Positions 11,754 to 28,321 are shown, counted from the stretch's first letter. The stretch is 64,000 bases of DNA from Minisyncoccota bacterium (GCA_041666915.1 JBAYFZ010000001.1:354508-418507), one strand, 5' to 3'. A program made the numbers and translations. Notes: generated from the letters alone by a model not told the origin.

Positions 11754-11975
11754 TCAATCATTCTCTTCTACGGAAATAAGTTTGCTCCTAGAATGATGAC
11801 CGTTGATGATCCTAACCAAAGTATTTGGATACATCTTCTGAACAAGTGCAATTATACGTTTGTTTGCCAAATTTTGTTTAGCTGGCTCTTTGACTGATAT
11901 TTCAAAATGATCAGCCGAGATTTTCTTGATCTCTTCCTTATTAGCACCTGTAGTGGCTTTTACGTGGATGTACAT
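11754..11975 (-). CDS. DUF167 (YggU-like) small protein
   Basis: 73 aa; the VKATTGANKEEI...ISVKEPAKQNLANKRII pattern resembles the YggU family. Confidence 0.5.
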   Translation of the reverse strand: MYIHVKATTGANKEEIKKISADHFEISVKEPAKQNLANKRIIALVQKMYPNTLVRIINGHHSRSKLISVEEND

Positions 11976-12068
11976 TTTGATATGGCTTTTGATTTCAGTC
12001 GCTAGATGTGCTACATTTTCTCATGTAAGTACATTAAAAGAAACGTAGACGAAAGTCTATTAATACAT

Positions 12069-12388
12069 TCCGGAGTAGCTCAGCGGTAGAGCGATCGCCT
12101 GTAGAGTATGCAGCTTTCTGTCGAAAGGCAGATCGAATAACGAGGTGAATTCGGGGAAACCCCAAACGTAATTGTGGGCAATCCCGAGCCGAGCCCGCCA
12201 AATGGTGGGAAGGTGTAGAGACTATCCAATTTTGGAGTAGCTTGAATTATTTATATAATAATTCTTGCGAAGCCCCTCGTCCCTAAACTGTGGCATTGCC
12301 ACGATATGGGAATGATATAGTCCGTACCATTAGTAATAATGGATTAAACGTAAGCGATTGGTCACAGGTTCGAATCCTGTCTCCGGAG
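12069..12388 (+). tRNA. tRNA-Asn(GUU) interrupted in the anticodon loop (between positions 35 and 36) by a group I intron; mature tRNA 72 nt
   Basis: The 5' exon 12069-12102 is TCCGGAGTAGCTCAGCGGTAGAGCGATCGCCTGT. The 3' exon 12351-12388 is TAAGCGATTGGTCACAGGTTCGAATCCTGTCTCCGGAG. Joined, they give a perfect cloverleaf with acceptor TCCGGAG/CTCCGGA, anticodon stem ATCGC/GCGAT, loop CUGUUAA and discriminator G73. Confidence 0.85.
12103..12350 (+). ncRNA. group I self-splicing intron (248 nt) within tRNA-Asn
   Basis: Core elements are recognisable: P-like AATTGTGGGCAA, Q-like AATCCCGAGC, R-like GTAGAGACTATCC, S-like GATATAGTCC. A P9 hairpin CCATTAGTAATAATGG precedes the terminal omega-G at 12350. 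The 5' exon ends in U, which can pair in P1 (CUGU/GCAG). Confidence 0.75.
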
Positions 12389-13933
12389 CAAAGCTGGATG
12401 AAGGGGCGTAATAACGCCCTTTTGTCCTTTCTGGACAAGGGTTTTCTGTGGTTCGAAAAGCTTTTCTGAGTCAATCTTCTCTTGAACACGTTTAGCAATC
12501 ATCTCCACCGATTTCTCCAATGTATAGCTCACTTTTTCGTTGTTAATGACTAAGTTCGAAAAAATCTTCTTCAGAATCATTCGACGTTCCATTGGATTTC
12601 TTTTTTCATAAATCTCTCGGGACCTTCGAGCTATGTCAATAATATCAATGTATCGTTCGAAATATTTAACCTCATCATTCTTGAGTCTCGCAATTTGTGA
12701 TTGGATTCCTTCCTGTTCAGACATTATCTCCGCTTGTTTTGACTCCCAGCGGTCCCTAGTAATCTTCTCGTCTAAGTGATCATCATAAAGTATGTCCAAT
12801 CGCTTCTGTAGGCTGTTATAGCGTTCCTGAAGAGCTTTTAACATATTCTCCTTGTATTCAGATTCGCCTTTATGATCATCACGGATCTTTTGATATAGTT
12901 GCTCAGCTTCGACAGGTGTAATTGCCTCAAATATTCTAAATACAGACAAGATCGAGTTCTCAATTTCTTCTTCTCGAGTCGAATACCTCTGTGAGCAAGT
13001 CTTGTAGTGCTTACATGAGTAATAAATATGACCTTTCTGGACCTCCCCGTAGATTGTACTGCCACATTCTCCACAATGAATCATCTTAGAGAATATATGC
13101 TGACGCCTCTTATAATGTGGCGCACCGTCCCGGACCAAAGCTGTTTGCACTGAGTCAAACAGTTCCTTAGATATTAACGGTTCCTGTTTTCCACCTCTAT
13201 ACAAGACTCCCTTCCAAATCATATCTCCATAGAAAAAAGGATCTTTTAGTATCTCATGTAAACAGGACTTACCAAGCTGACAACCATTTCTTGCTCGTAA
13301 TCCCTCTGAGTATAGCTTGTCACTTAGGGCCATCAATGAATAATTGCCTGTAGCATAATATTCAAAAGCCTTTTTCATGAACGGTCCCCGGACCTCATCT
13401 ATGACGTGTATTTTGTGACCCTTGTCGCCAATAGTCTTATATCCGAGTGGTGGCGTACATGGGAGCCAACCCTGAGCGATTTTCTCCTTCTGACCTTTCT
13501 TCACCTCTTCTGAGAGATTGTTGGTGTAGAAGCGTGCAATAGCTATCTTCATATCCCAGACCAGATTCTCGTGAGCACGGGTATTCTTGTTAACTACTGA
13601 ATTCTCCTTCACAAAGTGCACTTCACGAGCTTCATCTTCCTGAATCCAGTCATTAACTATCGAAGCATCTTTCAAATTACGTGTTAGACGATCTATTTTC
13701 TCACAGAGGATAATATTCACATCATTCTTAACTGTATATTCCAACATCTCGTTAAACACAAGGCGTATTTGCTTGCCACTGGCTGATTCACTGATCCTAA
13801 AAACTTTTGATATTGTAAGGTTCCTTTTACCTGCATATTCCTTCAAGAGCTTTTCTTGTGCATCAAGAGAGTAACCGGTTTCCTCCTGTTCTCGAGATGA
13901 TACACGTGCATATATGACGCAGTCGGTTTTCAT
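12362..13933 (-). CDS. large serine recombinase (resolvase/invertase catalytic domain + recombinase domain + zinc ribbon)
   Basis: N-terminal VIYARVSSREQ catalytic-serine motif and DRLTRN; central recombinase domain; Cys-rich segment CGECGSTIYG...YYSCKHYKTC. The 3' end of the ORF overlaps the 3' exon of tRNA-Asn. Confidence 0.85.
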   Translation of the reverse strand: MKTDCVIYARVSSREQEETGYSLDAQEKLLKEYAGKRNLTISKVFRISESASGKQIRLVFNEMLEYTVKNDVNIILCEKIDRLTRNLKDASIVNDWIQEDEAREVHFVKENSVVNKNTRAHENLVWDMKIAIARFYTNNLSEEVKKGQKEKIAQGWLPCTPPLGYKTIGDKGHKIHVIDEVRGPFMKKAFEYYATGNYSLMALSDKLYSEGLRARNGCQLGKSCLHEILKDPFFYGDMIWKGVLYRGGKQEPLISKELFDSVQTALVRDGAPHYKRRQHIFSKMIHCGECGSTIYGEVQKGHIYYSCKHYKTCSQRYSTREEEIENSILSVFRIFEAITPVEAEQLYQKIRDDHKGESEYKENMLKALQERYNSLQKRLDILYDDHLDEKITRDRWESKQAEIMSEQEGIQSQIARLKNDEVKYFERYIDIIDIARRSREIYEKRNPMERRMILKKIFSNLVINNEKVSYTLEKSVEMIAKRVQEKIDSEKLFEPQKTLVQKGQKGVITPLHPALLRRQDSNL

Positions 13934-13976
13934 TTGTTTAATTAATTATATATTATCTTAATTTACTAAAAATTTA

Positions 13977-14459
13977 TTAGGCCTTAAATTTATTGTTAAG
14001 ATATTTCTTACCGTAATTAAGAATATCTATATTTGTGTTGTTTATTTGTTTGCTATATGAAGTAGTTTTTGATATAGCACTACCACTGTTCTCGGCTTTT
14101 CTTGAAACAAGATTGGTACTATTCATGAAACTTAAAAGTAAAGCAACTAATTTTTCTTTATTAATATGAAAATGTCTTTTTGCGGGTATACCTTTTAATT
14201 TAACTTCAAGAATTCCTTTATTCTTACATATCCTAATCGCTGTATCTTGTTCATTTCTCGTTAATGCAGTCTCCATGTATAAATCATCCGCAGTTTTATA
14301 TGTCCAATATTTATCTGCTCCCTTACCATCCCAAAAAAGAAGTTGACAAATTAGTATTCCAGCCTTAACACTTCCTAAAGCTCTAGCAATAATAGCATGA
14401 TAGGCTACGATTTTATCACCTAACAAACCATAAATTACCCTCTGGTGTTTATTACTCAT
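13977..14459 (-). CDS. hypothetical winged-helix protein (possible replication/excision-associated DNA-binding protein)
   Basis: 160 aa; an N-terminal YGLLGDKIVAYHAIIARALGSVKAGILICQLLFW helix-rich segment resembles phage replisome-organiser / DnaD-like N-terminal domains; weak. Confidence 0.35.
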   Translation of the reverse strand: MSNKHQRVIYGLLGDKIVAYHAIIARALGSVKAGILICQLLFWDGKGADKYWTYKTADDLYMETALTRNEQDTAIRICKNKGILEVKLKGIPAKRHFHINKEKLVALLLSFMNSTNLVSRKAENSGSAISKTTSYSKQINNTNIDILNYGKKYLNNKFKA

Positions 14460-14480
14460 ACGATTTTATGTTCCGGACCC

Positions 14481-14521
14481 AATACTGATACCTTAATGGT
14501 CGAAACTAAGGTGTCAGTATT
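14481..14521. repeat. imperfect 15-bp inverted repeat with 11-bp spacer (candidate recombinase binding / attachment site)
   Basis: AATACTGATACCTTA-ATGGTCGAAAC-TAAGGTGTCAGTATT, 14/15 arm match, in the AT-rich gap between the recombinase module and tRNA-Arg. Confidence 0.4.
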
Positions 14522-15021
14522 GATCCCGGGGTTTTGTTTATCCTCATAATCAAACTCGGCGAGTAGATTAAATAACGACGCCAATCCGATAACGTCATTT
14601 TCTTGATTATTTAATTTTGAATTATTTTCGACCATTTGTGTATGATGGTGTGAACGATTTACTCACCATTGACGACCATCATACTAAAACAGCCATTTAC
14701 GTTTAAAATAAAAATTAAATATGGCTTAACTAAGCCAATTATACAAAATAATCCAATACACACTTATTCTTACTCCTATAATATTTTATATTCTTTTCCG
14801 TTGATAAGTAGAACAGGTTTTGATACTATAATCACATATAAGAATACTGACGCCAGAAAGGCCCAGCTGGCGCGCGCCTTCATTAGAAGGAAGAGCGAAT
14901 GGAGGAACTGCCGCCCTCCCAGATCTATCTAAAAAACTTCCTTCAATAAAGGAAGTTTTTTAGTTTAAAACCATTACTTTCTGTTCGACCAATTGGGTAC
15001 AAACTTTAATACAACTAGCAG

Positions 15022-15094
15022 TACCCTCGGAAGGACTCGAACCTTCAACCTTGCCGATAGAAGCGACTTGCTCTGTCCATTGAGCTACGAAGGC
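15022..15094 (-). tRNA. tRNA-Arg(UCU)
   Basis: The reverse complement GCCTTCGTAGCTCAATGGACAGAGCAAGTCGCTTCTATCGGCAAGGTTGAAGGTTCGAGTCCTTCCGAGGGTA folds as a 73-nt cloverleaf with anticodon loop CUUCUAU and T-arm GAAGG-TTCGAGT-CCTTC. Confidence 0.8.
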
Positions 15095-15234
15095 ATAACA
15101 CCTAACAAAAAACCGCAAGAAAGCAACAACCAGTTGGGTTGTCAGCTATTGCGGTTTATCTTCTTCTCTTAATGGAATTCACTATGTTTATTATACTAAC
15201 AGATAAGTATCCAATCCTCAAGAAAGATGCGCCC

Positions 15235-15438
15235 TCAGATTAAAGTTAATCTATACCATATTTTTGCTTCAATTTGAGCAACTCTAGTATCGCTAATATT
15301 AAATTTCTTACCCGTAACCTTTTGAGTATGTCTAATCCCGTCAATTACTCCATACCTATACTCAAAGATGGCTGTATGTCTATCATTTAAGTTTAAAAGT
15401 GGTTTATTATTACAATATTTCTGTATCTGCTTTTTCAT
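15235..15438 (-). CDS. small sigma-70 region-4-like HTH protein
   Basis: 67 aa; C-terminal ISDTRVAQIEAKIWYRL resembles sigma-70 region 4.2 (xSxxRVRQIEAKALRKL). Its start overlaps the recombinase stop. Confidence 0.5.
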   Translation of the reverse strand: MKKQIQKYCNNKPLLNLNDRHTAIFEYRYGVIDGIRHTQKVTGKKFNISDTRVAQIEAKIWYRLTLI

Positions 15439-16796
15439 TATATTTTTATATTTTTAACAAAAGGCATAATATTTTCATAAATATTTTCTGGTTTAATAAT
15501 ATACTCAAGATATTGATTGTCATCTGAAAATAAAACAAAATTGCACTGATTAAAAACATTTGTCGGTATAAGGAAAACATCATCTATCAATTCTTTTTTA
15601 CCTAATGTAATACTAACAGCAAAAACTTTATCGTAACTCCTCTTTTCTTCTTCAATGACAAAGATCGTAGACTTCTTACCAGAATTGACTTCATATGAAT
15701 TAACACTATAAGCAAGAGGAAACTTCTTTATTTTAGATTCAGCATCATCTACACTAAAACCCTCTTTCACAAGGAGTTCTCTCATCTCTCTCTCAACAAA
15801 ATTCTGTGCTTTACGTATCATATAAATACCTTTTTTCCATCTCGAAGGTGTGGACCAAAAGAGACGATCTTGAGCCATCCAAAATATTTTCTCATCAATA
15901 ACAGCCGGAAACGCTTTCGGAGCAATGGCCCACTCATTTCGTGGATTTTTTACCTTCTTCTGCTTTAATTTACCTGATGTCTTATTGTAAAGTCTTGTAC
16001 CAGTATAAACTTCATTCCCTAAAATATGACTAACTTTTCCTTTACTCCATACCCCACCATTCGCAGAAGGAATACTCTTCTCATTTAAAATATCGACAAT
16101 ATCACTTGTGGTAAGCCACTTATTTACAAACATATCGAAAATATCTTTCACTACATCTGTAGTCTCGTCATTAAGGGGTGCAAATGTAACGCGTTGATTA
16201 CTAATTTGTTTATGTTCACCTTTTTTAAGTTCACGTATAGGTTTTTTATTCTCATCCAGAAGAAGCCTTACCATACCATAGCAGGCTGTACCACCAGCAG
16301 AATAACCATCTTTTGAAATCTTCATGCAACCGTACCAAACTTTACCACTCAATTGTCGCGAGTATTGTGCGGCCATCCAACGTTCCATTGGCGTAATGAT
16401 ACTATCAGTTATCTCTTGCTCCTCTCTTGGAAATGGCTTACTTGTGTATAGAACTTTCTTACCATGTTGTTCGCAAAGATGTTCGTAATAAGCTGCTTCG
16501 TTTTGGTTTTGGAATCTACCCCAACGAGAAACATCATATACGAGTATGTAATCGAAGTGGGGTGCGTTTGGATTAAGCACCCAATCTTTCATAAGACTTT
16601 GAAAACCTGGACGGTTTGCCGTTAAACCACTTACACCCTCATCAGCAAGATGATCAATAATTTCTCCACCGAATTTTGTAGCAAAACGTGCATGATGATC
16701 TTTTTGGATAGGAACAGAATTTTCTTGTTTATCTTCAGCAGAATGACGGTTATACGTAATTCCTACCCATATTCGTTTTGATTGTAAAAATTGCAT
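15438..16796 (-). CDS. large serine recombinase (second copy, divergent sequence)
   Basis: N-terminal resolvase-like domain (VGITYNRHSAEDKQ, DVSRWGR) and central recombinase domain (GKVWYGC...ERWMAAQYSRQLS). Confidence 0.75.
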   Translation of the reverse strand: MQFLQSKRIWVGITYNRHSAEDKQENSVPIQKDHHARFATKFGGEIIDHLADEGVSGLTANRPGFQSLMKDWVLNPNAPHFDYILVYDVSRWGRFQNQNEAAYYEHLCEQHGKKVLYTSKPFPREEQEITDSIITPMERWMAAQYSRQLSGKVWYGCMKISKDGYSAGGTACYGMVRLLLDENKKPIRELKKGEHKQISNQRVTFAPLNDETTDVVKDIFDMFVNKWLTTSDIVDILNEKSIPSANGGVWSKGKVSHILGNEVYTGTRLYNKTSGKLKQKKVKNPRNEWAIAPKAFPAVIDEKIFWMAQDRLFWSTPSRWKKGIYMIRKAQNFVEREMRELLVKEGFSVDDAESKIKKFPLAYSVNSYEVNSGKKSTIFVIEEEKRSYDKVFAVSITLGKKELIDDVFLIPTNVFNQCNFVLFSDDNQYLEYIIKPENIYENIMPFVKNIKI

Positions 16797-16797
16797 A

Positions 16798-17655
16798 CTA
16801 GAGAATCTTCTTAAGTTCCGTGATTAAATTCTTTTCTTTTTCATCAAAAGGGATACCATTTTTCCTTTTCTTTTTTACTTCTTCTATAAGTTGTAATATG
16901 TGAAGAGAAAAATCCGATTGAATAGTGTCTCGATCAAGTTCAGCTACCGTTGCATCAGGGTCTGATAAAAATCTATAGATTTCGGCTTCATTGGCAGCGG
17001 CACGGGCAAATATCTTCTGTATCTTGCGAAAATCTTTAGCATTTTTAATAATACGATGCTTAACCTTTTCAAAGAGTATTTTAATTATATCCGGCGTCTC
17101 AAAGTTTCTTATCTTTCTCAATTTTGGCCACAATCTCACGAACTCCATCCGGTACACTTCCTTAAGATCATACTTAACCATAAGCTCAAGATAATCTAAT
17201 TTTTGTTCTCTCAATTGAAGAGACGACGCAATAGTTGTCCTCGAGAGATTCAAAAGTTTTGAAAGTTCTTCATTACTCTTAAGTCCTAGCATTATCTTTG
17301 CTCTATGAAGGGAGTTTGATTTTTCCATAGGTTTCCACCCTTTTCGGTTATTCTGTTTTTCATATCGTCGTATTTCTAACTCTCCATCATCAAGATCTGG
17401 ATAAATCTGACACATAGCTTTTTCTACACCCAGACCTTTTAAACAAAGATAACGACGATGCCCATCAATTATTAAGTAACGATTATCGTCTTTCTGGGTA
17501 ACCATTATCGGTTCTTGAAGTCCAAATTGCTTAAGAGAACTAGTAAGCTTTTCTTGTTCTGATGGATTACCATATTCTTTTCGTGGCTGATTACTATCTA
17601 ATTCAATTTCTGAAATTAATACTTCCTTAAAGATTGTTGTATGTTTCCCTATCAT
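16798..17655 (-). CDS. ParB/Srx-fold nuclease-like domain protein
   Basis: N-terminal ParB box (LIIDGHRRYLCL, GxRR) with a C-terminal helical region. Confidence 0.7.
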   Translation of the reverse strand: MIGKHTTIFKEVLISEIELDSNQPRKEYGNPSEQEKLTSSLKQFGLQEPIMVTQKDDNRYLIIDGHRRYLCLKGLGVEKAMCQIYPDLDDGELEIRRYEKQNNRKGWKPMEKSNSLHRAKIMLGLKSNEELSKLLNLSRTTIASSLQLREQKLDYLELMVKYDLKEVYRMEFVRLWPKLRKIRNFETPDIIKILFEKVKHRIIKNAKDFRKIQKIFARAAANEAEIYRFLSDPDATVAELDRDTIQSDFSLHILQLIEEVKKKRKNGIPFDEKEKNLITELKKIL

Positions 17656-17688
17656 AATAAATGGATGTTATATATTAAAATTAAATAC

Positions 17689-17723
17689 GAGCCAAAAATT
17701 ACCTAAAAGAGCCAAAAATTACC
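17689..17723. promoter_or_regulatory. tandem 15-bp direct repeat GAGCCAAAAATTACC x2 upstream of the ParB-like gene (candidate operator/parS-like site)
   Basis: Two exact copies 5 bp apart, ~35 bp upstream of the ParB-like start codon. Confidence 0.4.
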
Positions 17724-17851
17724 CGTTTTGAAAAAAGCTATCATACAAACAAATGATTGTAAAGATGTAAGACGGCACATTCAATCTTGTTGTATTGCTA
17801 TTTAAAATTAAATATTGTAAATTATAAATAAGTCAATTTAACTATAAAAAC

Positions 17852-18306: not shown

Positions 18307-18362
18307 AGCGACTATAAAAAAACGACTAAATCCTTAGAGCCTGAAGCATACGACGAAGATAT

Positions 18363-18758
18363 CTATGGGATGCAAATACCCTCAAACCTGCTGATTAGCT
18401 CCCCTTCGTCACTTATCACATCTGGGACCGAGCACCATCTTCCAAAGATATGCCAGACGATATTTCCGGAGTCATTTCTAGTTTTTATGAACTTAGTCAG
18501 GCTGAATGCTATCCACTTACCATCGATTTCGTAGTAGCCACCTGATATATCTCCCGAATCTACGTAAATTATCTTATTCGTCTCCTCATCAGATAGGATT
18601 TTATTTCTGTGGACCCAAAATACTATTCCCGGACCTTCATCAATTTCAGATTTATAGGTTACATTTACATACTCCGTCGACAGGTGGCCACGTATACGAG
18701 CATCAAAAATACATTGCGGAATTGGACACCATGATGGAGCTTTGAAATCTTTGTTCAT
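18363..18758 (-). CDS. hypothetical protein
   Basis: 131-aa ORF, first (3'-most) of nine co-directional genes of unknown function. Confidence 0.4.
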   Translation of the reverse strand: MNKDFKAPSWCPIPQCIFDARIRGHLSTEYVNVTYKSEIDEGPGIVFWVHRNKILSDEETNKIIYVDSGDISGGYYEIDGKWIAFSLTKFIKTRNDSGNIVWHIFGRWCSVPDVISDEGELISRFEGICIP

Positions 18759-18837
18759 TTGATTACAGTTATTCGAAAACTATCCAAGAATAATCTAAGC
18801 TGATTTTCATCCTTTCGTAAATTAGACTTGTCTCAAT

Positions 18838-19287
18838 CTATTTCTTTGCAAGGTTTTCTATGTGTAGAGCTTTTAATTGTTTAACCAGCTTATCATATTC
18901 CTCTTTATTAAACTCGAGTGGAGGATATATTATTAGTTTACCTATCATAGATGGAAAATTACGAACCTCATATCCATCGTTACCATCTGGCATTCGAATT
19001 GGTATTTCAGACACTCTAACTCCATCCATATTTTCTAAAAACCTTTTCCAAATTACTTTATCTTCTCTATGTACAACTTCTACATAGACACCGCAACAGG
19101 CACTTATCAAACATCTTCCGAGACATATTTCATAAAACCCATCTTTTTCTAGGCTTTTTTCAAATTCCTGAATGTTAAAAAATCGTCTCTGAGGATTGCC
19201 ATCCAGCACAACTTCAAAAGCCCCGCTATTAGCAATGAGATCTTTAAACAAAACATCTTTATTTATTCTATATGATAATGTGTTCAT
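18838..19287 (-). CDS. hypothetical protein
   Basis: 149-aa ORF. Confidence 0.4.
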   Translation of the reverse strand: MNTLSYRINKDVLFKDLIANSGAFEVVLDGNPQRRFFNIQEFEKSLEKDGFYEICLGRCLISACCGVYVEVVHREDKVIWKRFLENMDGVRVSEIPIRMPDGNDGYEVRNFPSMIGKLIIYPPLEFNKEEYDKLVKQLKALHIENLAKK

Positions 19288-19316
19288 TTTATTAAATACC
19301 CTTGATTTGTTCTTTG

Positions 19317-19790
19317 TTATTTTCCATGAGTATATGATTTCAATAAATTACTAATCATTCTACCAATACGTGTCCTCCCACGTATAAGTCTTGGCTTTTT
19401 CGTCCCCGCATAGAGTTTATATAGTTCAAGAAGAACCCCATCAATGAACGCTCTGCTATGTTCAGTATCAACTTGCATTTTTTCAACATATTCATGCAAG
19501 AATGCCAACTTATCGACCGGCTTCTCTTTTTCTAGACAATCAAAGAAATGGAAACAAGTGCTTTGGACCCTATCTGCAACAGAGCCTTCGTACCACGCAT
19601 TGGGTCTATAGCGTCCATATTTAATTTTATTGATGGTCATACTTACCAGCACATCAGTGAGGAAGCCGTGATATTTTTCGGTATTATCGTCAACATAACC
19701 GCACCAAAAACACGCTACACCCCGTTTGAATGGTATATATTGTTTAGAGCATTTCGGGCATGCGTATTCAGCTTTGATGTGGAAGGTCAT
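19317..19790 (-). CDS. hypothetical protein with N-terminal zinc ribbon
   Basis: CPKCSKQ...CFWCGY Cys4 motif. Confidence 0.4.
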   Translation of the reverse strand: MTFHIKAEYACPKCSKQYIPFKRGVACFWCGYVDDNTEKYHGFLTDVLVSMTINKIKYGRYRPNAWYEGSVADRVQSTCFHFFDCLEKEKPVDKLAFLHEYVEKMQVDTEHSRAFIDGVLLELYKLYAGTKKPRLIRGRTRIGRMISNLLKSYTHGK

Positions 19791-19853
19791 ATAATTTATC
19801 GTTAACGAATGATATGTCTCATCTTAGTAATCTATTCGATACTACAAATATAA

Positions 19854-20156
19854 TCATACTATATAAAACATGTTGAATAATGCTTTAGTAAAAAGATAAT
19901 ACCCAAAAATTTCAATTAGAATGTTAAATATCCAAAAAATCGGACTCAAATTTTTTTCTATCCTATATTGAATAAACATTAACATTGCAGCAACGGCCCC
20001 ACTTAATGCAAATCCGATCGGAAGATAGAAAATTGATCTAATACTCAAAAAAGTAATACCGGTTGTCCAGAATAGGATTATAGAATAAATAATAAAATAT
20101 ACAATTGCACGATAATATGAATAGTATCTGGTTTCGTATTCGTACATATTTGGCAT
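19854..20156 (-). CDS. small membrane protein
   Basis: 100 aa, 3 predicted TM helices. Confidence 0.4.
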   Translation of the reverse strand: MPNMYEYETRYYSYYRAIVYFIIYSIILFWTTGITFLSIRSIFYLPIGFALSGAVAAMLMFIQYRIEKNLSPIFWIFNILIEIFGYYLFTKALFNMFYIV

Positions 20157-20747
20157 TTAATTATTTAACCACCTAGATACTCCTCCACGGTGTGAGCATG
20201 AATTGCTTTGGTTCAAACCAAAGCTGAATGTACCATCTCTGCATTGTGCAGTTGATCTTATTGAAATACTTCTGGGTGGATCTGCATACCCATGCATCAA
20301 AGCTAATGGGTCATTATAGTAACCTCTCACATGGGTTATACCTTGTTGTGTTGATATTTCATTAGTTGACCAACCACCACCTAAAGCAAATATAATAACA
20401 GATACTAATAGTAAAAATGTTGGTAACACTGCAACAATCCAAACTATTATCTTCATGTTTCTAAAAAACCTTTTTGATTTATTGACACGAAACTTTTTCA
20501 TTTGTCTTCGAAGAAGCCACGCAGAGAATACGATCCAAAAAATGCCCCCGACTAAAGTCATTGAACCATTTGCACTAGGTACTAATAAGATCAGTTCCTT
20601 GACTAGCACCATCGTGAACAGAGATAGCAACAAAATAGCGATTGTGACGAAAATCCAGTCTCGCAGAGTCAACTTGAACGTTCCTAGATCCAGAGCATCA
20701 ATGATTTTTTCATCGGGACCAAGAGTATTAGATGTGTTATTGCTCAT
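20157..20747 (-). CDS. membrane protein with C-terminal DUF3761-like Cys-rich domain
   Basis: C-terminal CRDGTFSFGLNQSNSCSHRGGVSRW resembles the DUF3761 signature (CxDGxxSxS...CSHHGGV..W); TM segments lie upstream. Confidence 0.5.
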   Translation of the reverse strand: MSNNTSNTLGPDEKIIDALDLGTFKLTLRDWIFVTIAILLLSLFTMVLVKELILLVPSANGSMTLVGGIFWIVFSAWLLRRQMKKFRVNKSKRFFRNMKIIVWIVAVLPTFLLLVSVIIFALGGGWSTNEISTQQGITHVRGYYNDPLALMHGYADPPRSISIRSTAQCRDGTFSFGLNQSNSCSHRGGVSRWLNN

Positions 20748-20818
20748 AAATTTGTTTAATTATTATCTAGAAATTGATTTTTATATTACTTTTAAGTACA
20801 TTTTCAAAGCTTCACTCA

Positions 20819-21094
20819 TTACCAAGTTAACCTTAAGAAAGACAGAAATCTATAACAAATCGAAACATATCTTTTTAGAATAATTACAGATCCACAGACT
20901 CGATCATTATTTAAGTTCAAATCGGTTGCAATAGGCTTAAGCTGATTTTCAATTTTCTTCATATATTCAACATAAGCATTACCGTAGTGATTGATATTGT
21001 ATACAGAGATATTAAACCACTTAAGCTCTTTCTCCATTCTTCCTATTACCAATTCAAAATCATCAGTATAATTAACTTGATGAAAAATCAACAA
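20819..21094 (-). CDS. hypothetical protein
   Basis: 91-aa ORF. Confidence 0.3.
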   Translation of the reverse strand: MLIFHQVNYTDDFELVIGRMEKELKWFNISVYNINHYGNAYVEYMKKIENQLKPIATDLNLNNDRVCGSVIILKRYVSICYRFLSFLRLTW

Positions 21095-21126
21095 CCAATA
21101 ACCATCTTCTTGTGATATTTTTTGGT

Positions 21127-21900
21127 TTAGATTTTTATCAAGATAACCAAGATACCTCTTAAAATAAGAGAGTTCTTTTTTTGTTTATATAAAGTTTTAT
21201 TTAATTCTGCAATTTTCTTAAGAAGTTTTACTTTATTATCTTTATGTATAGATAAGATATTTTTAATATAGCCATAAGCAAAAGAGAAATTATCATCCGA
21301 AAGATATCCGTAAGTGGTTGTCTGTGTAGTTGTTTGACTAGACAAATATTCGTGGTCAATAAAAGTTTTCACAACCTTTCTTCCTACCATCATAATATCA
21401 GCGAACCCTAACATCATTGCTGTAATATCAGTATAAAATTCATTATCTTTTTCCTTGTGCAACAATGAATATAGGACGATATGTGATAATTCATGAGCCA
21501 TCACAGTTATTAGTGTCGATGGATTCTCAATACAATTTTCACTTAGTCTAATGCTTATAGGAAAATTGATCATACTCGAAGTTCCGTAGAAAGGTAAGTT
21601 TGCAGGGATAGAGACCTGAGCTGTGATACCTCCTGTACCTCTACCTCTCCAATCAGTCTTTACAAGATGAGTGCTCCGGAATCCGTCGTTTGTATTTGGA
21701 CTATATCCTTTTGGTACATACGACAAATTTACTTCAATTGGTAAACCTAGATATCCTGCAATTTCCTTTATAGCTTCTTTTATCTTTTTTGAAAGAATTA
21801 AAGATATAATTTTTTGGTGATCAACAAATTCCTTAACACCAATTGTACTTGAAAGATGATTTATTGCATTCTCTATGTATTTATTATCAACTTCTTCCAT
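21127..21900 (-). CDS. HExxH zinc metallopeptidase-like protein (possibly ImmA/IrrE-type)
   Basis: VMAHELSHIV motif with acidic residues downstream; no other homology recognised. Confidence 0.4.
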   Translation of the reverse strand: MEEVDNKYIENAINHLSSTIGVKEFVDHQKIISLILSKKIKEAIKEIAGYLGLPIEVNLSYVPKGYSPNTNDGFRSTHLVKTDWRGRGTGGITAQVSIPANLPFYGTSSMINFPISIRLSENCIENPSTLITVMAHELSHIVLYSLLHKEKDNEFYTDITAMMLGFADIMMVGRKVVKTFIDHEYLSSQTTTQTTTYGYLSDDNFSFAYGYIKNILSIHKDNKVKLLKKIAELNKTLYKQKKNSLILRGILVILIKI

Positions 21901-21986
21901 TTATAAATATAATTTAACTATTAAGCTAGAGAAGATTAATCCAAAAAAACTAAATATGTACTTATTACAAAACTTTCTTCCAATTT

Positions 21987-23039
21987 TTAATAAGCATTGA
22001 ATTGAGCAGGGTCCATATAGCTCGTCTCAGCAGTACCACCAATCACGGGATTGAGTGTAATGGTAAACTTTGAGTATTTAACGTATTGACTGTCTTCCGT
22101 TGTTGTAATATCAAAAATATCATCAAATGACTGCGAGTTAGCACTTTTTACGAAGGTCTTATTTACTGTATCCCAGTCCACCCCTTGCATAAATGCAAGC
22201 AAATATTTTCCATCCGATATGTTTGTTATGGTGTAAGTGTTCTCAGCTCTGACGTAGACTGTGAAAATCGATGTGCCGTTGCGAAGCAATTTTGCTACAG
22301 CGTCATGGCTCGTTCCGTTTTTTATTAGGAGTTGACCATCACCATCCAGATAACTAGAAACCTTCTTAAACACATAACCATTATCAAGCGAATATGGGAC
22401 GGTTAAACCTGCTTGCCTGTCCTTAAGAAATTGTTGATGTGCCGTCGTTGTTGAATTAAATACTTCGTCAGACTTGTTAAGCCATGTACAATAATCCGGT
22501 TCAAATAGGCTTATAAGGCCACCAGCGCTACATGAGGCTTTAATTTTAGCTTGGGTAGCTTTCATGGCGTCACACTTTGCTCTCGTGGTAGGGTCTAATT
22601 TGTCCGTAGGTGTGTCTATGTGAAGACACTCTACTTCCTTACCAAGTTGGTCAATTTTCGTTGTGTCGATATGTTGAATCGGAGTTATGAATGAAGGTAA
22701 TGACGTTGGTTGTGGCAATGGCATTTTGGTTCCTCCGGTGTTTGAATCACTATCGCCAGAATAAGCCCAAGCAATAAAAATTATCACCGCAACGACTACG
22801 ACACATTTATTAAAGATAGCTTTTTTAAGAAACCTTGTGGCCATAGCGGTATAGTCTTTTACCAGTCTGATTTTTGCTTCGTAACCTTTATAAAACTTGT
22901 CGCTCTCGACTGTTTCTTTTACAGCACTAAAATGATTAGATGCATTATTTGCTATGCTTTCCACTAAAGAAAGCAGGCAGTACGGACATTTAATCGCCTT
23001 ATCATGAATCTCTTTTTTACAAAATGGGCATTTTTTCAT
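21987..23039 (-). CDS. membrane-anchored protein with N-terminal zinc ribbon and extracytoplasmic domain
   Basis: CPFCKKE...CPYC, a single TM (VVVVAVIIFIAWAY), then a ~250-aa domain. Confidence 0.4.
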   Translation of the reverse strand: MKKCPFCKKEIHDKAIKCPYCLLSLVESIANNASNHFSAVKETVESDKFYKGYEAKIRLVKDYTAMATRFLKKAIFNKCVVVVAVIIFIAWAYSGDSDSNTGGTKMPLPQPTSLPSFITPIQHIDTTKIDQLGKEVECLHIDTPTDKLDPTTRAKCDAMKATQAKIKASCSAGGLISLFEPDYCTWLNKSDEVFNSTTTAHQQFLKDRQAGLTVPYSLDNGYVFKKVSSYLDGDGQLLIKNGTSHDAVAKLLRNGTSIFTVYVRAENTYTITNISDGKYLLAFMQGVDWDTVNKTFVKSANSQSFDDIFDITTTEDSQYVKYSKFTITLNPVIGGTAETSYMDPAQFNAY

Positions 23040-23057
23040 GTTATTTGATTACACTTC

Positions 23058-23552
23058 CTAGTAAATTATCTGCTTGCAAGTTGAACATTTAACATCTTCG
23101 TATAGGTTTTTATTGACTGGCACCCTTAGTCGCTGGCCGCATTTTCTACAAATTACGATCTCTTTTTCTGCAAAGTACTTAATCTTTATAATTTTTATGA
23201 AAATAATTAGTCCTACTAGTGAAATCGGTATAGTAAACAATAAGATTTTTGGATCGCTAGCTCCTGTAAATATCTGAAATAAAATAAACGGTATAGCTAG
23301 ATAAAGATAAAAATATGTTTTAAAAACATGAGCTCTATCCAGGTTGACCTTCTGTTTCTGATATTGAGTCTTGCTACTGTTATAAAATCCTAAAAAGAAT
23401 CGATCTGTCTTACCTTCCCATAATCGATAAGAATCAAGTGGTATGATTGGAAGAAAAAATATAATAAACCACTCGGTGGCCACATATGAACCATCAGGTT
23501 TCTTATTACTCGCACCATAATATATGGTGCCTATACCATTGAATGAAGACAT
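23058..23552 (-). CDS. membrane protein with C-terminal zinc ribbon
   Basis: TM helices plus CRKCGQ...CSTCKQ. Confidence 0.4.
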   Translation of the reverse strand: MSSFNGIGTIYYGASNKKPDGSYVATEWFIIFFLPIIPLDSYRLWEGKTDRFFLGFYNSSKTQYQKQKVNLDRAHVFKTYFYLYLAIPFILFQIFTGASDPKILLFTIPISLVGLIIFIKIIKIKYFAEKEIVICRKCGQRLRVPVNKNLYEDVKCSTCKQIIY

Positions 23553-24144
23553 TTTAAATCATTTTACAAACACAAAAAGCCCACCACGGGTAGAGGCCGA
23601 AGCCCCTCATATCAGTTTCCCGATATGGCAGATTAAGGCGACCCCATGATGGGTTCTTTGTCCTTAATCTGACTAACTTTTCACCATGCCAGAAATCACT
23701 TATTTCTGGTTTAGGCTACTTATACATATTCAGTTGTATGTTTAGGATACCACTCTATTACGTCCATGCCAATATTCAGCTCTTTAACAATCGTGTAATG
23801 CATGTCTCCCTTCACCACATAATAGTGTATAATAAAGCTATGAAATACGCTTATCTATCCATAATAATTCTTTTAATAATCAGTGGTTTTTATTGGTTTC
23901 AGTTGCGACCAAGCCAAATTAAAAAACATTGTTTTTATACCAGTGCAACATTAAAAGAAAATTTATCGCCTCATGCCGATTTAACTTCTCCAGATAGCTT
24001 TAGTCTCGCCAGCGTAGAAGCACAATCCAATTACCATTCTTGTTTAACCTCGAATGGACTTTAAGGTTGAACTCGAAGAAAAAATGTGATGTAAGTCACT
24101 ATCCACAGTTTTTTTATTTCTATTTGGTTGATATAATGTTGCTC

Positions 24145-27318: not shown

Positions 27319-28321
27319 GATTCATGCTATTTAAGACTTCACTGAGGACCGACTGATTGATTTTTTCTAGGTTAAATCTACTTGCTGGCTCATCATCTGA
27401 GGGTTCAATGATTTCAATATTTGAATACCTCAATTTTCCAAGTTGCATTTTTGTCTTCATACTTGAATCCGTATCCTTTCCGTGGCAAAACACATAAATT
27501 TTTAGTGTAGGATTCGATTCTGCTGCTCTTATCGTTATTTCTCGAATATGTTCATCTTCCATAGAGAATCCTAGAACAAAAAGAACGGTATTTTCTTTTT
27601 CCAGTTCACCTGAATACATTCTGAGCAATTCGTAGTAAGTTACATCGATTACCGTTTCTTCAAGTTTTTTCCTTTCTGGATTTACTATTGCTAATCTTTC
27701 ATAACCAGCCTCAAAAGCTCGTTGTCCCTTTTTTAACAAAGATTTATCGAAATGTTCTAGCTTTGAAAAATGAATTTTATTTTCAACCTTTTCCCATGTC
27801 AAAGATCCGTGGACTTTCATAAGATTAAACAAAGGTATTTCTGAAACATTCTCATAGTGCAAACTTCTTTTTTGTATTGATTTTTTAAAATTACTCAGGC
27901 TAAAAGTAGCATTTAATCGACCATTGAAACCATCGTTATATTCAAGACTACTATCTTCCAAAACAGTTTCCATCAGTATATCTATGTTTGTAGTAAATAT
28001 GTTAACTTGCTTACTGAGAATTGTATTCTTGCGCTTCAAAAGTATACGTGCAAGCATTTCAAAAAAATCCTTATACGCCTTACATGTTGTATCAAAATCG
28101 CCTTTTTTAGCTATTGATTTACTAATAATTTCAAGATTAGGAATTATTACTCTCTCAAAATACTCCTTCTTTATCTTTACCCGCTCAGATTTCTTTTTTT
28201 CGCTAGATAAACGAGTCTCAATATCACCAAGTATTGGCAAAAACGGTGTTGAAAGACCAGCCCCAACTAGGACATTTATGTGCGAGCTCTGTATGGCCTC
28301 TTTTATTTCTTGAGGTTTCAT
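27302..28321 (-). CDS. SIR2-family (DHS-like NAD-binding) protein, SIR2-HerA antiphage system
   Basis: VLVGAGLS (GAGxS), IFTTNIDIL (TTNYD-like) and MKVHGS (HGS) motifs; overlaps the herA start by 17 nt. Confidence 0.8.
   Translation of the reverse strand: MKPQEIKEAIQSSHINVLVGAGLSTPFLPILGDIETRLSSEKKKSERVKIKKEYFERVIIPNLEIISKSIAKKGDFDTTCKAYKDFFEMLARILLKRKNTILSKQVNIFTTNIDILMETVLEDSSLEYNDGFNGRLNATFSLSNFKKSIQKRSLHYENVSEIPLFNLMKVHGSLTWEKVENKIHFSKLEHFDKSLLKKGQRAFEAGYERLAIVNPERKKLEETVIDVTYYELLRMYSGELEKENTVLFVLGFSMEDEHIREITIRAAESNPTLKIYVFCHGKDTDSSMKTKMQLGKLRYSNIEIIEPSDDEPASRFNLEKINQSVLSEVLNSMNHGDKE

What the first reader, a model, noticed from the sequence alone, without database searches (positions are those of the whole stretch)
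12351..17723. Serine-recombinase gene overlapping the tRNA-Asn 3' exon, plus a second tRNA-Arg/serine-recombinase/ParB module: probable integrated element(s)
A 523-aa large serine recombinase ends inside the 3' exon of tRNA-Asn, the classic geometry of a tRNA-targeting integrase (though usually tyrosine-type). About 2.6 kb away, tRNA-Arg(UCU) is followed by a second, divergent serine recombinase. That recombinase overlaps a sigma-R4-like mini protein and a ParB/Srx-fold protein with tandem 15-bp direct repeats upstream. A 15-bp imperfect inverted repeat with an 11-bp spacer (14481-14521) sits between the two modules and looks like a recombinase site. Everything downstream to ~29 kb is hypothetical or defence cargo.
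Basis: partly seen in the sequence, partly recalled or inferred. Interest (0 to 1): 0.6.

Follow-up and report, generated by a model that had tools for sequence, protein, structure and literature searches.

The report
tRNA-end serine-integrase islands in Patescibacteria
A large serine integrase whose gene runs into the end of a tRNA-Asn gene belongs to a widespread Patescibacteria family that inserts variable, defence-carrying DNA islands at the last bases of tRNA genes, a job normally done by tyrosine integrases.

Summary
An intron-split tRNA-Asn(GTT) (12069-12102 / 12351-12388) overlaps by 27 nt the 3' end of a 523-aa large serine recombinase, LSR1 (12362-13933, - strand).

This is not chance. 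At least 57 of 79 related loci from other Patescibacteria have the LSR1 homologue ending inside a convergent tRNA gene. Most are tRNA-Asn; one clade uses tRNA-Gln.
- Three relatives carry 15-19-bp direct repeats of the tRNA 3' end, bounding 7-kb islands.
- One relative has a tandem second copy.
- The shared core, TGCTC, is the tRNA's last three bases plus a 2-nt trailer.
- Genes on the tRNA side are syntenic; genes on the recombinase side are variable cargo.

LSR1 travels with a lambda-O-like wHTH protein and a 59-aa ORF. It is more likely an operator or origin than a crossover site.

The second module is a separate recurring cassette, ParB-LSR2-sigma4, with conserved iterons. tRNA-Arg points away from LSR2, so the geometry differs from LSR1's.

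LOOT RNA sits on the element side in 34 of 79 relatives and never on the host side.

The distal boundary in this window is unproven. The best candidate is AGCA at 15017-15020.

The parts
12069..12388 (+). tRNA-Asn(GTT). 5' exon 12069-12102, group I intron 12103-12350 inserted at position 35/36, 3' exon 12351-12388. G73 is at 12388 and no CCA is encoded. This is the attB-side (B arm) of the junction.
   Evidence: Sequence read. Rfam RF00028 at 45.9 bits, E 1.6e-10. Custom acceptor/T-arm search. The insertion position matches Nakagawa et al. 2026 (PMC13011429).
12386..12390 (.). Inferred crossover core GAGCA (antisense TGCTC). It comprises G71-A72-G73 of the tRNA plus the 2-nt trailer CA. This is attL.
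   Evidence: It is the overlap of the repeat blocks in L010, L014, L022 and L044, mapped by homology onto the window.
12362..13933 (-). LSR1, a 523-aa large serine integrase. It overlaps the tRNA-Asn 3' exon by 27 nt.
   Evidence: Pfam Resolvase, Recombinase and Zn_ribbon_recom. phrog_95 integrase, E 5e-74. Invariant R10, S12, C287, C290, C307 and C313. The family profile hits the TP901-1 N-terminal domain and the A118 integrase C-terminal domain in the PDB.
13977..14459 (-). ORF160, a lambda-O-like N-terminal wHTH protein. It is the conserved partner of LSR1.
   Evidence: phrog_9773 'replication initiation O-like', E 1.3e-24. Homologues lie directly upstream of the recombinase in L005, L009, L010, L023, L096 and L097.
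14456..14635 (-). ORF59, a conserved small protein (motif FFDLLA+FDYEDKQ). It is the first gene of the LSR1 module.
   Evidence: Homologues occupy the same position in L003, L005, L010, L013, L015, L018, L096 and L097.
14473..14529 (.). Conserved palindrome inside ORF59. Arms are 16-23 nt with an 11-nt spacer. It is a candidate operator or origin.
   Evidence: Found by the repeat finder as I1. Present at the same place in 9 of 9 homologues, with covarying arms and the loop WWTCAGCTC in the other eight.
14842..14963 (+). Candidate small RNA (skipping-rope-like, below threshold) followed by a bidirectional terminator hairpin at 14929-14963.
   Evidence: RF02924 at 29.2 bits against a gathering score of 36.7, E 1.5e-4, full-length match. 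Fold z-score -4.0. It is not LOOT.
15017..15020 (.). Candidate attR core AGCA, abutting the tRNA-Arg 3' end. It would close a 2.63-kb LSR1 mini-element spanning 12391-15020.
   Evidence: It is the only AGCA in 14600-15030. L097 carries the same tRNA-Arg unit at the far end of its own LSR1 element. This boundary is inferred, not proven.
15021..15189 (-). tRNA-Arg(TCT) at 15021-15094 plus its conserved promoter and hairpin leader. It is probably host DNA separating the two elements.
   Evidence: ARAGORN and Rfam. 78% identity to L097 218-387 and 77% to L098. L097 and L098 are 96% identical here but differ beyond the tRNA-Arg 3' end.
15235..17655 (-). ParB_N (16798-17655), LSR2 (15438-16796) and the sigma-70 region-4 mini-protein (15235-15438). 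The three genes form one operon with overlapping stops and starts.
   Evidence: Pfam and PHROGs. 67-77% nucleotide identity to the same cassette in L089, L091, L099 and L101.
17689..17745 (.). Promoter-proximal iterons, 2 x 15 bp (17689-17703 and 17709-17723), with the promoter-like -35/-10 upstream of ParB.
   Evidence: Exact repeat. Conserved with parallel changes in both copies in L091 and L089 (aligned); the same tandem repeat is visible upstream of ParB in L101.
18363..23717 (-). LOOT RNA (23592-23717) heading a same-strand operon of hypothetical cargo genes: ORF164, ORF350, a SprT-like ORF257, a DUF3761 protein and others.
   Evidence: RF03000 at 78.6 bits. Model R1 at 110.9 bits. Partly shared with L091. 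ORFs.
25438..28321 (-). SIR2-HerA defence pair.
   Evidence: Pfam. PADLOC HerA E 5e-177 and SIR2 E 5e-63.
30202..31478 (-). AbiEii/AbiEi toxin-antitoxin defence pair.
   Evidence: Pfam. PADLOC E 2e-76 and E 2e-54.

Best explanation
LSR1 is the integrase of a mobile island family specific to Patescibacteria. The family inserts at the extreme 3' end of a tRNA gene, here tRNA-Asn.

**How it works**
- Strand exchange takes place in the last three tRNA bases plus the 2-nt trailer (sense GAGCA). The tRNA stays intact and only its trailer is replaced.
- The element's P' arm is the 3' end of the integrase gene itself. In the integrated state the ORF therefore reads on into the antisense tRNA until it meets a chance stop codon.
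- The conserved integration module is ORF59 (containing a palindrome), a lambda-O-like wHTH protein, and LSR1.
- In relatives this module is followed by a LOOT RNA that heads a variable cargo operon.

**This window**
- The region is a composite of at least two elements.
- First comes an LSR1 element, most likely a cargo-less 2.6-kb version ending at AGCA 15017-15020, against the convergent host tRNA-Arg.
- Second, beyond the tRNA-Arg promoter, comes an island built around a ParB-LSR2-sigma4 cassette. It carries a LOOT-led operon and, at least as far as about 28-31 kb, SIR2-HerA and AbiE defence genes.

**Shown versus inferred**
- Shown: the overlap, the family-wide tRNA association, repeats and a tandem copy in relatives, variable cargo against a syntenic host flank, and conservation of the palindrome and iterons.
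- Inferred: the exact crossover position, the window's distal boundary, current mobility, and the roles of the palindrome, LOOT and the ParB cassette.
For: 1. **Family-wide geometry.** Of 79 GTDB loci encoding LSR1 relatives, 25 have an intron-less tRNA-Asn overlapping the ORF end. At least 15 more have an intron-split tRNA-Asn, 13 have tRNA-Gln, and one each has Leu, Val, Lys or Arg(TCG). All are convergent with overlaps of 12, 27, 39 or 60 nt. Most of the remaining loci end at the contig edge.
2. **Antisense tails.** The C-terminal tails (LLRG, LLRRQDSNL, LLPRQDSNLRPIA and others) are antisense tRNA translations of varying length.
3. **att repeats in relatives.** L014 has TGCTCCGCGGCCAGG twice, L022 has TGCTCCGCGGGTAGG twice, and L044 has GCTCCGCGGGTAGGACTCG twice. 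Each pair lies 6.8-7.4 kb apart. L010 has a second family member in tandem ending in the same TAAATACAAAACATTGCTC. The common core is TGCTC.
4. **Synteny contrast.** Host-side genes (PF1765-like, HPF, fmt, def, priA, mreB) are shared by 10-15 loci. On the element side only ORF160 and ORF59 recur.
5. **Intact enzyme.** All three LSR domains are present, the catalytic and zinc-binding residues are invariant, and there is homology to the TP901-1 and A118 integrases.
6. **Not core, rarely viral.** 182 hits among 185,579 species genomes. Only 2 close relatives in IMG/VR.
7. **Target tracks phylogeny.** There is a coherent Gln clade plus sporadic switches.
8. **Composition and cargo.** GC is 0.29-0.40 across 14-28 kb against 0.38-0.42 in the host flank. 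Defence cargo is confirmed.
9. **Window boundary.** L097, with the same host synteny, has the same tRNA-Arg unit at the far end of a different 5.2-kb LSR1 element. AGCA abuts tRNA-Arg in the window.
Against: - No empty site or circular junction was found for the window or for any relative. The predicted tRNA-Asn/tRNA-Arg tail-to-tail attB gave no hit in JGI metagenomes.
- All three samples holding this strain carry the island.
- The window has no repeat of the tRNA-Asn end longer than 4 nt at a plausible boundary. A 4-nt core is weak evidence.
- L098 shows the tRNA-Arg unit next to different DNA, with no tRNA-Asn within 5 kb.
- L006 and L091 have tRNA-Arg(TCT) next to LOOT-led cargo. tRNA-Arg could therefore be cargo, and the LSR1 element could extend to 30 kb or beyond.
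- Only 4 of 29 relatives tested show convincing repeats within the 10 kb fetched.
Confidence: 0.75

Rival explanations
1. There is one large composite island. LSR1 mobilises everything from 12.39 kb to at least 30 kb. On this reading tRNA-Arg(TCT), the ParB-LSR2-sigma4 cassette, the LOOT operon and the defence genes are all cargo of a single LSR1 element, or of a nested or accreted one.
For: - Low GC and hypothetical or defence content run from 14 to about 32 kb.
- The Logan contig SRR6484324_81075 spans exactly 12362-30187.
- tRNA-Arg(TCT) sits at the end of a LOOT-led cargo operon in L006 and next to one in L091.
- L098 shows the tRNA-Arg unit in a different context.
- Other LSR1 elements carry LOOT and cargo.
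Against: - In the window, LOOT and its cargo are oriented as in LSR2-type loci (L089, L091), not as in LSR1-type loci.
- L097 and the window share the tRNA-Arg unit but nothing else between it and the LSR1 module.
- No att-like repeat occurs near 30 kb.
- A JGI contig runs through 30187 without a break.
Confidence: 0.3
2. LSR1 is a fixed relic or domesticated gene. It was inherited with tRNA-Asn, is no longer an integrase of a mobile element in this genome, and the overlap is a frozen accident.
For: - No attR, empty site or circle was found for the window.
- The same arrangement appears in all three samples.
Against: - The ORF is intact with all catalytic and zinc residues conserved.
- The family has over 2600 homologues at 50-77% identity across very divergent Patescibacteria.
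- Cargo is variable, repeats and tandem copies occur in relatives, and the tRNA target switches.
Confidence: 0.1
3. The palindrome at 14473-14529 is a site on which one of the serine recombinases acts.
For: - It is a 23-nt imperfect inverted repeat with an 11-nt spacer, about the size of a serine recombinase site.
- It is conserved in every LSR1 module examined.
Against: - Element ends in relatives map to the tRNA 3' end, 2 kb away.
- The palindrome is internal to a conserved ORF.
- Its arms covary freely while the LSR is 60-87% conserved.
- It lies next to a lambda-O-like DNA-binding protein, and in lambda the origin lies within a coding sequence (established knowledge of lambda ori).
- Mismatches in the arms show no consistent strand for G-U wobble pairs. 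This argues for a duplex DNA site rather than an RNA hairpin.
Confidence: 0.1

Closest known systems
Phage-type large serine integrases (A118/LI, TP901-1, Bxb1, phiC31)
   Same: Same three-part architecture: a catalytic N-terminal domain, a recombinase domain, and a zinc ribbon with an inserted coiled-coil region. The family profile matches the TP901-1 N-terminal domain (E 3e-12) and the A118 C-terminal domain (E 2e-10). att sites are short, with little identity between attL and attR.
   Different: The target is the last bases of a tRNA gene rather than a protein-coding gene or intergenic site. The P' arm lies inside the integrase ORF, so the ORF crosses attL. Sequence similarity to solved integrases is too low for a single-sequence phmmer hit. 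The elements are mostly non-viral.
tRNA-integrating genomic islands and prophages with tyrosine integrases (P4-like, SSV-type; the classification of Williams 2002, from my own knowledge)
   Same: The integrase gene lies next to the tRNA 3' end and the tRNA is kept functional. Cargo is variable and often defensive, and elements accrete in tandem at one tRNA.
   Different: The enzyme class differs (serine, not tyrosine). The identity block is 4-19 bp at the very 3' end rather than 20-60 bp reaching into the T or anticodon arm. Overlap of an integrase ORF with the att site is otherwise known from SSV-type tyrosine integrases, where the gene is split. Here only a dispensable tail changes.
Rare serine-recombinase elements at tRNA genes: Paracoccus phage vB_PamS_Pami6 at tRNA-Met (PMC6536676) and the 27 of 937 Prochlorococcus tycheposons and cryptic elements that carry an LSR (bioRxiv 10.1101/2020.12.28.424599)
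   Same: A serine recombinase is associated with a tRNA integration site. Tycheposons are modular, with integrase, replication genes and cargo.
   Different: Those are isolated cases. Here a whole family of hundreds of members across Patescibacteria shows the association, with a defined junction geometry, a LOOT RNA and an O-like/palindrome module.
Group I introns at position 35/36 of Patescibacteria tRNA-Asn (Nakagawa et al. 2026, PMC13011429)
   Same: Same tRNA, same insertion position, and the same failure of standard tRNA finders.
   Different: That paper does not mention recombinases or islands. In my data intron-bearing and intron-less tRNA-Asn genes are both targets, so the intron is not part of the element.

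Membership tests
Large serine recombinase (serine integrase) | N-terminal resolvase-type catalytic domain with the nucleophilic serine and a flanking arginine | tested here: met
   PF00239, E 1e-22. R10, V11, S12, E15 and Q16 are invariant in 31 family members.
Large serine recombinase (serine integrase) | Recombinase domain followed by a zinc-ribbon domain with four zinc ligands | tested here: met
   PF07508, E 2e-10, and PF13408, E 7e-10. C287, C290, C307, H309 and C313 are invariant. The profile aligns to residues 35-288 of the A118 integrase C-terminal domain.
Large serine recombinase (serine integrase) | Coiled-coil motif inserted in the zinc ribbon that controls directionality | tested here: inconclusive
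   Residues about 340-440 are conserved and align with the A118 region that contains the coiled coil. No structure was predicted.
Large serine recombinase (serine integrase) | Catalyses attP x attB recombination at a 2-bp crossover; excision needs a directionality factor | not testable with these tools
   Only junction anatomy in relatives is available.
tRNA-integrated genomic island | Integrase gene adjacent to the 3' end of an intact tRNA gene | tested here: met
   27-nt overlap in the window. The same geometry is seen in at least 57 of 79 relatives.
tRNA-integrated genomic island | Direct repeat of the tRNA 3' end at the distal boundary | tested here: inconclusive
   In the window only AGCA (4 nt) at 15017-15020 qualifies, and no longer repeat exists. 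The feature is met in relatives L014, L022 and L044, and by the tandem copy in L010.
tRNA-integrated genomic island | Presence/absence polymorphism (an empty site) among close relatives | tested here: not met
   No empty site was found. The three samples with this strain all carry the island. The predicted attB is absent from JGI metagenomes. Coverage of close relatives is very thin, so this is weak negative evidence.
tRNA-integrated genomic island | Variable cargo against a conserved host flank | tested here: met
LOOT RNA (Rfam RF03000) | Score above the family's gathering threshold over the full model | tested here: met
   78.6 bits against 46.4, model positions 1-121.
Group I intron in tRNA (Patescibacteria 35/36 type) | Group I core fold, insertion between anticodon positions 35 and 36, 5' exon ending in U and intron ending in G | tested here: met
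   RF00028 at 45.9 bits, E 1.6e-10, slightly below the gathering score of 50. The exon junctions CCTGT|A...G|TAAGCG were read from the sequence. Splicing was not tested.
Phage lambda O-type replication initiator | N-terminal origin-binding wHTH domain plus a C-terminal domain that recruits the helicase loader | tested here: inconclusive
   ORF160 matches only the N-terminal part: residues 18-132 against profile positions 14-123 of 288 (phrog_9773, E 1e-24). No C-terminal domain is present.
ParB/Srx superfamily | ParB N-terminal (CTPase/Srx-like) domain | tested here: met
   PF02195, E 2.6e-10. phrog_4715, E 1e-18. parS binding and CTP binding were not tested.
SIR2-HerA and AbiE defence systems | Both component proteins adjacent and matching the system models | tested here: met
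   PADLOC HerA 5e-177, SIR2 5e-63, AbiEii 2e-76 and AbiEi 2e-54.

The most novel reading that the evidence does not exclude
Patescibacteria harbour a large, so far undescribed class of integrative elements. Its proposed features are:
- a serine integrase that recognises the 3' acceptor/T-arm end of tRNA genes and has its own 3' coding end as the P' arm;
- a lambda-O-like protein with a co-evolving palindrome that provides replication or control;
- the orphan LOOT RNA acting as the cis-acting leader that drives or gates expression of exchangeable defence cargo.

This would make the class a serine-recombinase counterpart of tyrosine-integrase tRNA islands and tycheposons. A second recombinase cassette, ParB-LSR2-sigma4, would move between such islands and tRNA-proximal sites.
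Probability: 0.35. Interest if true: 0.7.

Novelty: new variant of a known kind. Interest (0 to 1): 0.55.

Why it matters
- **A textbook rule has an exception.** tRNA genes are regarded as the preserve of tyrosine integrases. A whole family of serine integrases that target the last bases of tRNA genes would be an independent solution to the same problem.
- **Little is known about mobile elements in this phylum.** I found no paper in the searched library describing integrative elements of this kind in Patescibacteria.
- **Possible practical use.** Serine integrases with short, highly conserved natural targets such as tRNA 3' ends may interest genome engineers.
- **Context for an orphan RNA.** LOOT now has a reproducible genomic setting: it heads the cargo operon of these islands. 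That makes its function testable.
- **Annotation.** The intron-split tRNA-Asn is missed by standard tools, so the tRNA association of these integrases is invisible in automated annotation.

Tried and rejected
- **Long repeats of the tRNA-Asn 3' end in the window.** None found with up to 3 mismatches over 31 nt.
- **attR by similarity to the tRNA arm.** I scanned after every GCTC for similarity to the B arm and found no convincing candidate.
- **The 18/20 copy of the attL junction at 46701-46720.** It lies inside an intact copA ORF between its HMA and ATPase domains. I rejected it as a boundary; it is probably chance, at roughly 1%.
- **Logan contig ends at 12362 and 30187 as island ends or a circle.** There is no terminal overlap. 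The three D1 repeat copies share no exact 31-mer. A JGI contig runs through 30187. An 11-nt T-arm-like match at the D1 ends is too short to count.
- **Empty site by exact-protein look-ups.** Look-ups of flanking proteins (HPF, AbiEii, SIR2) returned only island-bearing contigs.
- **Predicted tail-to-tail tRNA-Asn/tRNA-Arg attB.** No hits in JGI metagenomes.
- **Repeats of the tRNA-Ser and tRNA-Arg 3' ends around LSR2-type loci.** None found.
- **LSR1 and LSR2 as a Ccr-like pair.** They share no similarity beyond the fold. LSR2 occurs without LSR1 in five other loci.
- **The small RNA at 14842-14927 as a diverged LOOT.** Rejected: 7.5 bits at best.
- **A prophage.** Only the HTH part of a small-terminase model matches and there are no structural genes. 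The family is nearly absent from IMG/VR.

Full report
**1. What is in the sequence**

The window comes from a Candidatus Paceibacterota (Patescibacteria/CPR) chromosome. The LSR1 protein is 100% identical to an NCBI/ENA protein on a 450,810-bp contig.

At 12069-12388 (+) there is a tRNA-Asn(GTT) gene split by a 248-nt intron.
- The 5' exon is 12069-12102 and ends ...CCTGT.
- The intron is 12103-12350.
- The 3' exon is 12351-12388, TAAGCG...CTCCGGAG, with G73 at 12388 and no encoded CCA.
- The intron matches the Rfam group I model over its full length at 45.9 bits, E 1.6e-10, just under the gathering score of 50.
- ARAGORN and Rfam at gathering threshold both miss the tRNA.
- The insertion point, between anticodon positions 35 and 36, is the one recently described and validated for Patescibacteria tRNA-Asn (PMC13011429).

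On the opposite strand, ORF 12362-13933 encodes a 523-aa protein, LSR1. It has Resolvase, Recombinase and Zn_ribbon_recom domains. Its stop codon lies 27 nt inside the 3' exon. Its last nine residues, LLRRQDSNL, are simply the antisense translation of the acceptor stem and T arm.

- tRNA-Arg(TCT) lies at 15021-15094 (-).
- A second recombinase, LSR2, spans 15438-16796 and is 452 aa.
- LSR2's ORF overlaps a 67-aa sigma-70 region-4 protein (15235-15438) and a ParB_N protein (16798-17655).
- Two exact 15-bp direct repeats lie at 17689-17723.
- The inverted repeat is larger than described: 23-nt arms at 14473-14495 and 14507-14529.

**2. The overlap is a family trait**

LSR1 has more than 2600 homologues. 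The best 120 are 52-77% identical and those carrying a source name are labelled Patescibacteria-type (Paceibacterota, Parcubacteria, Kaiserbacteria) or simply 'bacterium'.

In an alignment of 31 of them the catalytic R10/S12 motif and the zinc ligands are invariant. The C-termini end in variants of LL(R/P)(G/R)(Q)DSN(L/Q)..., which are antisense tRNA sequence of differing length.

I fetched 79 loci from GTDB species genomes and scanned them for tRNAs. I also ran a custom search for split tRNAs and Rfam. In every case below the tRNA is convergent and the ORF enters it from its 3' end, overlapping by 12, 27, 39 or 60 nt.

| Target | Loci |
|---|---|
| tRNA-Asn, intron-less | 25 |
| tRNA-Asn, group I intron | at least 15 |
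| tRNA-Gln | 13 |
| tRNA-Leu, Val, Lys, Arg(TCG) | 1 each |

Most remaining loci stop at a contig end. A neighbour-joining tree shows tRNA-Asn as the prevailing target, one coherent tRNA-Gln clade, and scattered switches. That pattern fits a site-specific integrase family that occasionally retargets.

**3. Evidence that these are insertions**

- *Synteny contrast.* On the tRNA side the window's genes (PF1765-like, HPF, fmt, def, priA, mreB) have homologues in the same order in 10-15 loci. On the recombinase side only the two small genes next to LSR1 recur, and everything beyond them differs.
- *Direct repeats.* Three relatives have direct repeats that start exactly at the tRNA 3' end and recur 6.8-7.4 kb upstream of it. 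L014 has TGCTCCGCGGCCAGG, L022 has TGCTCCGCGGGTAGG, and L044 has GCTCCGCGGGTAGGACTCG.
- *Tandem copy.* L010 has a second family member in tandem whose 3' end carries the same TAAATACAAAACATTGCTC as the tRNA-proximal copy.
- *Common core.* The blocks overlap in TGCTC, which is sense GAGCA: G71-A72-G73 plus the 2-nt trailer. I infer that strand exchange occurs there. This leaves the tRNA intact and replaces only its trailer.
- *The P' arm is coding.* The P' arm is therefore the end of the integrase gene. In L022 and L044 the stop codon falls inside the shared block, so the protein is the same in both states. In L014, and on my reconstruction in the window, only a non-conserved tail would change on excision. 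The read-through is thus incidental, not a sensor.
- *Not core, rarely viral.* 182 relatives were found among 185,579 species genomes. The family is almost absent from IMG/VR, with 2 close hits.
- *Enzyme class.* The family profile matches the TP901-1 catalytic domain and the A118 integrase C-terminal domain in the PDB. The single sequence does not.

**4.

ORF160 (13977-14459) matches the N-terminal DNA-binding part of lambda-O-like replication initiators (phrog_9773, E 1e-24). Homologues sit directly upstream of the recombinase in L005, L009, L010, L023, L096 and L097.

ORF59 (14456-14635) recurs in front of it in eight further loci.

The inverted repeat lies inside ORF59. It is present at the same position in all nine homologues examined. 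Its arms are 16-18 nt and differ between elements but stay self-complementary. The spacer is WWTCAGCTC in eight of them. Mismatches show no consistent strand for G-U pairs, which argues for a duplex DNA site rather than an RNA hairpin.

Element ends map to the tRNA, 2 kb away. I therefore read the palindrome as the operator or origin recognised by the adjacent O-like protein, co-evolving with it. This is an inference.

**5. The second module**

LSR2 is unrelated to LSR1 beyond the fold and has its own large family. That family includes about 50% identical proteins in Bacteroidota.

ParB-LSR2-sigma4 (window 15253-17745) recurs as a unit at 67-77% nucleotide identity in five other loci: L089, L090, L091, L099 and L101. 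Two of the copies are in one genome. Their neighbours differ and include restriction-modification genes, a reverse transcriptase, DUF3800, other integrases, and host genes.

The tandem 15-bp repeats are conserved just downstream of a promoter-like -35/-10. Both copies change in parallel in L089 and the repeats are also visible in L101. They are therefore iterons or an operator.

In L101 the cassette begins 96 nt after the 3' end of tRNA-Ser(GCT). In L091, tRNA-Arg(TCT) lies upstream of it. In the window, tRNA-Arg lies downstream of sigma4 and points away from LSR2. The tRNA-Arg/LSR2 pair therefore does not repeat the tRNA-Asn/LSR1 geometry. How the cassette moves remains unknown.

**6. LOOT RNA**

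The window's only other Rfam hit above threshold is LOOT (23592-23717, 78.6 bits).

A covariance model built from six copies found LOOT in 34 of the 79 LSR1 loci and in L089 and L091.
- Every copy is on the element side of the recombinase. None is on the host side.
- Most lie 1-3 kb upstream of the recombinase, on the opposite strand.
- Nearly every copy (35 of 36) is followed within about 140 nt by a same-strand ORF, and the family of that ORF varies.

LOOT thus heads the variable cargo operon. In the window its orientation and its roughly 6-kb distance from ParB match the LSR2-type loci L089 and L091. L091 also shares ORF350 and ORF157 homologues with the window.

**7. Where the window's elements end**

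No repeat of the tRNA-Asn end longer than 4 nt sits at a plausible boundary.

The most informative comparison is L097.
- It is a relative with the same host gene order. Its LSR is 65% identical to LSR1.
- It has a tRNA-Arg(TCT) plus a 95-nt promoter/hairpin leader that is 78% identical to window 15021-15189.
- This unit lies at the far end of a different 5.2-kb LSR1 element, in the same orientation as in the window.
- A JGI contig, L098, is 96% identical to L097 across this unit and beyond. It diverges right after the tRNA-Arg 3' end.

In the window the only AGCA between 14600 and 15030 abuts the tRNA-Arg 3' end at 15017-15020, and attL carries AGCA at 12387-12390.

My preferred reading is a cargo-less 2.63-kb LSR1 element (12391-15020) lying between two convergent host tRNA genes. 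It would be followed by a separate ParB-LSR2 island. I give this boundary about 45% confidence.

The rival is a single accreted island reaching 30 kb or more, with tRNA-Arg as cargo.
- tRNA-Arg(TCT) is linked to LOOT-led cargo in L006 and L091.
- L098 lacks tRNA-Asn within 5 kb.
- A Logan contig spans exactly 12362-30187.

The predicted empty site was not found in JGI metagenomes. All samples with this strain carry the island. Current mobility is therefore unproven.

**8. Comparison with what is known, and verdict**

LSR1 works like a phage-type serine integrase and passes the domain tests for that family. As an island it behaves like the tRNA-integrating elements normally run by tyrosine integrases.

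Serine recombinases at tRNA sites have been reported only as isolated cases.
- One Paracoccus phage integrates at tRNA-Met (PMC6536676).
- A small minority of Prochlorococcus tycheposons and cryptic elements carry an LSR.

My searches of the paper library found no description of this Patescibacteria family, of its junction geometry, or of the LOOT association. The tRNA-Asn intron itself is already known.

I rate the finding a new variant of a known kind, of moderate interest. The mechanism class is established. The target class, the scale of the family in CPR, the module with a co-evolving palindrome, and the link to an orphan RNA are new.

Noticed in passing
window 23592-23717; L001-L079, L089, L091: LOOT RNA (RF03000), an orphan motif, occurs in 34 of 79 LSR1 loci. 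It is always on the element side and never on the host side. Almost always (35 of 36 copies) an ORF follows directly on the same strand, and that ORF's family varies. LOOT looks like the leader of the exchangeable cargo operon.
   Followed up: partly
window 12103-12350; L001, L003, L005, L006, L008, L009, L020, L032, L033, L035, L043, L057, L064, L066, L075: A group I intron sits at position 35/36 of tRNA-Asn and hides the gene from ARAGORN. At least 15 of about 40 tRNA-Asn targets of this integrase family carry such an intron, 200-650 nt long. In L097 a GIY-YIG ORF lies next to an intron-less tRNA-Asn. The intron type is already published (PMC13011429).
   Followed up: partly
window 14842-14963 (+): A GC-rich structured segment matches skipping-rope RNA over the full model but below threshold (29.2 against 36.7 bits). 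A perfect 15-bp terminator hairpin follows it. It occupies the slot, upstream of and antisense to the integrase module, that LOOT holds in other elements.
   Followed up: partly
window 30092-30192, 32134-32234, 34361-34461: Three 101-nt repeats, 85-88% identical, each come directly after a terminator hairpin and contain an extended -10-like TGGTTATAAT. They are spaced 2.0 and 2.2 kb apart and separate small gene groups: AbiE, a TPR protein, and hypotheticals. Their function is unknown.
   Followed up: partly
window 384-492, 1656-1693, 10038-10177, 54784-54896, 59177-59277, 60158-60261: A REP- or MITE-like palindromic unit, GTCATTCCCGCGAAGGCGGGAATCC, mostly occurs as inverted pairs 66-100 nt apart. 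There are six sites in the outer 20 kb of the window and none between 10.2 and 54.7 kb. This hints that much of the middle of the window is flexible genome.
   Followed up: no
window 46701-46720 (-): An 18/20 copy of the attL junction (ATCCAGTTTGGCTCCGGAGA) lies inside an intact copA gene. No shuffle produced such a match, and my rough estimate of chance is about 1%. An intact ORF makes a real junction implausible.
   Followed up: partly
window 12362-30187 (Logan SRR6484324_81075); window 10140-12091 (SRR6484324_417294): In an independent sample the assembly breaks at 12091 (tRNA D arm), at 12362 (T arm, which is also the LSR1 stop) and at 30187 (the end of the first 101-nt repeat). The intron and anticodon region is missing from these contigs. 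Strain heterogeneity at the tRNA is possible but untested.
   Followed up: partly
L101 8869-9140; L099; L089; L091: The ParB-LSR2-sigma4 cassette occurs twice in one genome (GCA_974884615.1). In one copy it starts 96 nt after the tRNA-Ser(GCT) 3' end. In two loci (L089, L101) it lies beside a second, convergent zinc-ribbon LSR. This may be a separately mobile recombinase cassette.
   Followed up: partly
window 15095-15189; L097 218-313; L098 5181-5276: A conserved promoter plus a long hairpin (ACCGCAATAG...CTTGCGGTTTTTT) lies directly upstream of tRNA-Arg(TCT) in three related genomes. It may be a leader or small RNA co-transcribed with the tRNA.
   Followed up: no
window 42182-47154 and 50122-55373: These stretches hold accessory clusters unusual for a reduced CPR genome. 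One has an ECF sigma factor, a cupredoxin, a DsbD-HMA protein and a CopA copper ATPase. There is also a sortase with a DUF11 surface protein, a two-component system, and NiFe-hydrogenase subunits with a maturation protease.
   Followed up: no
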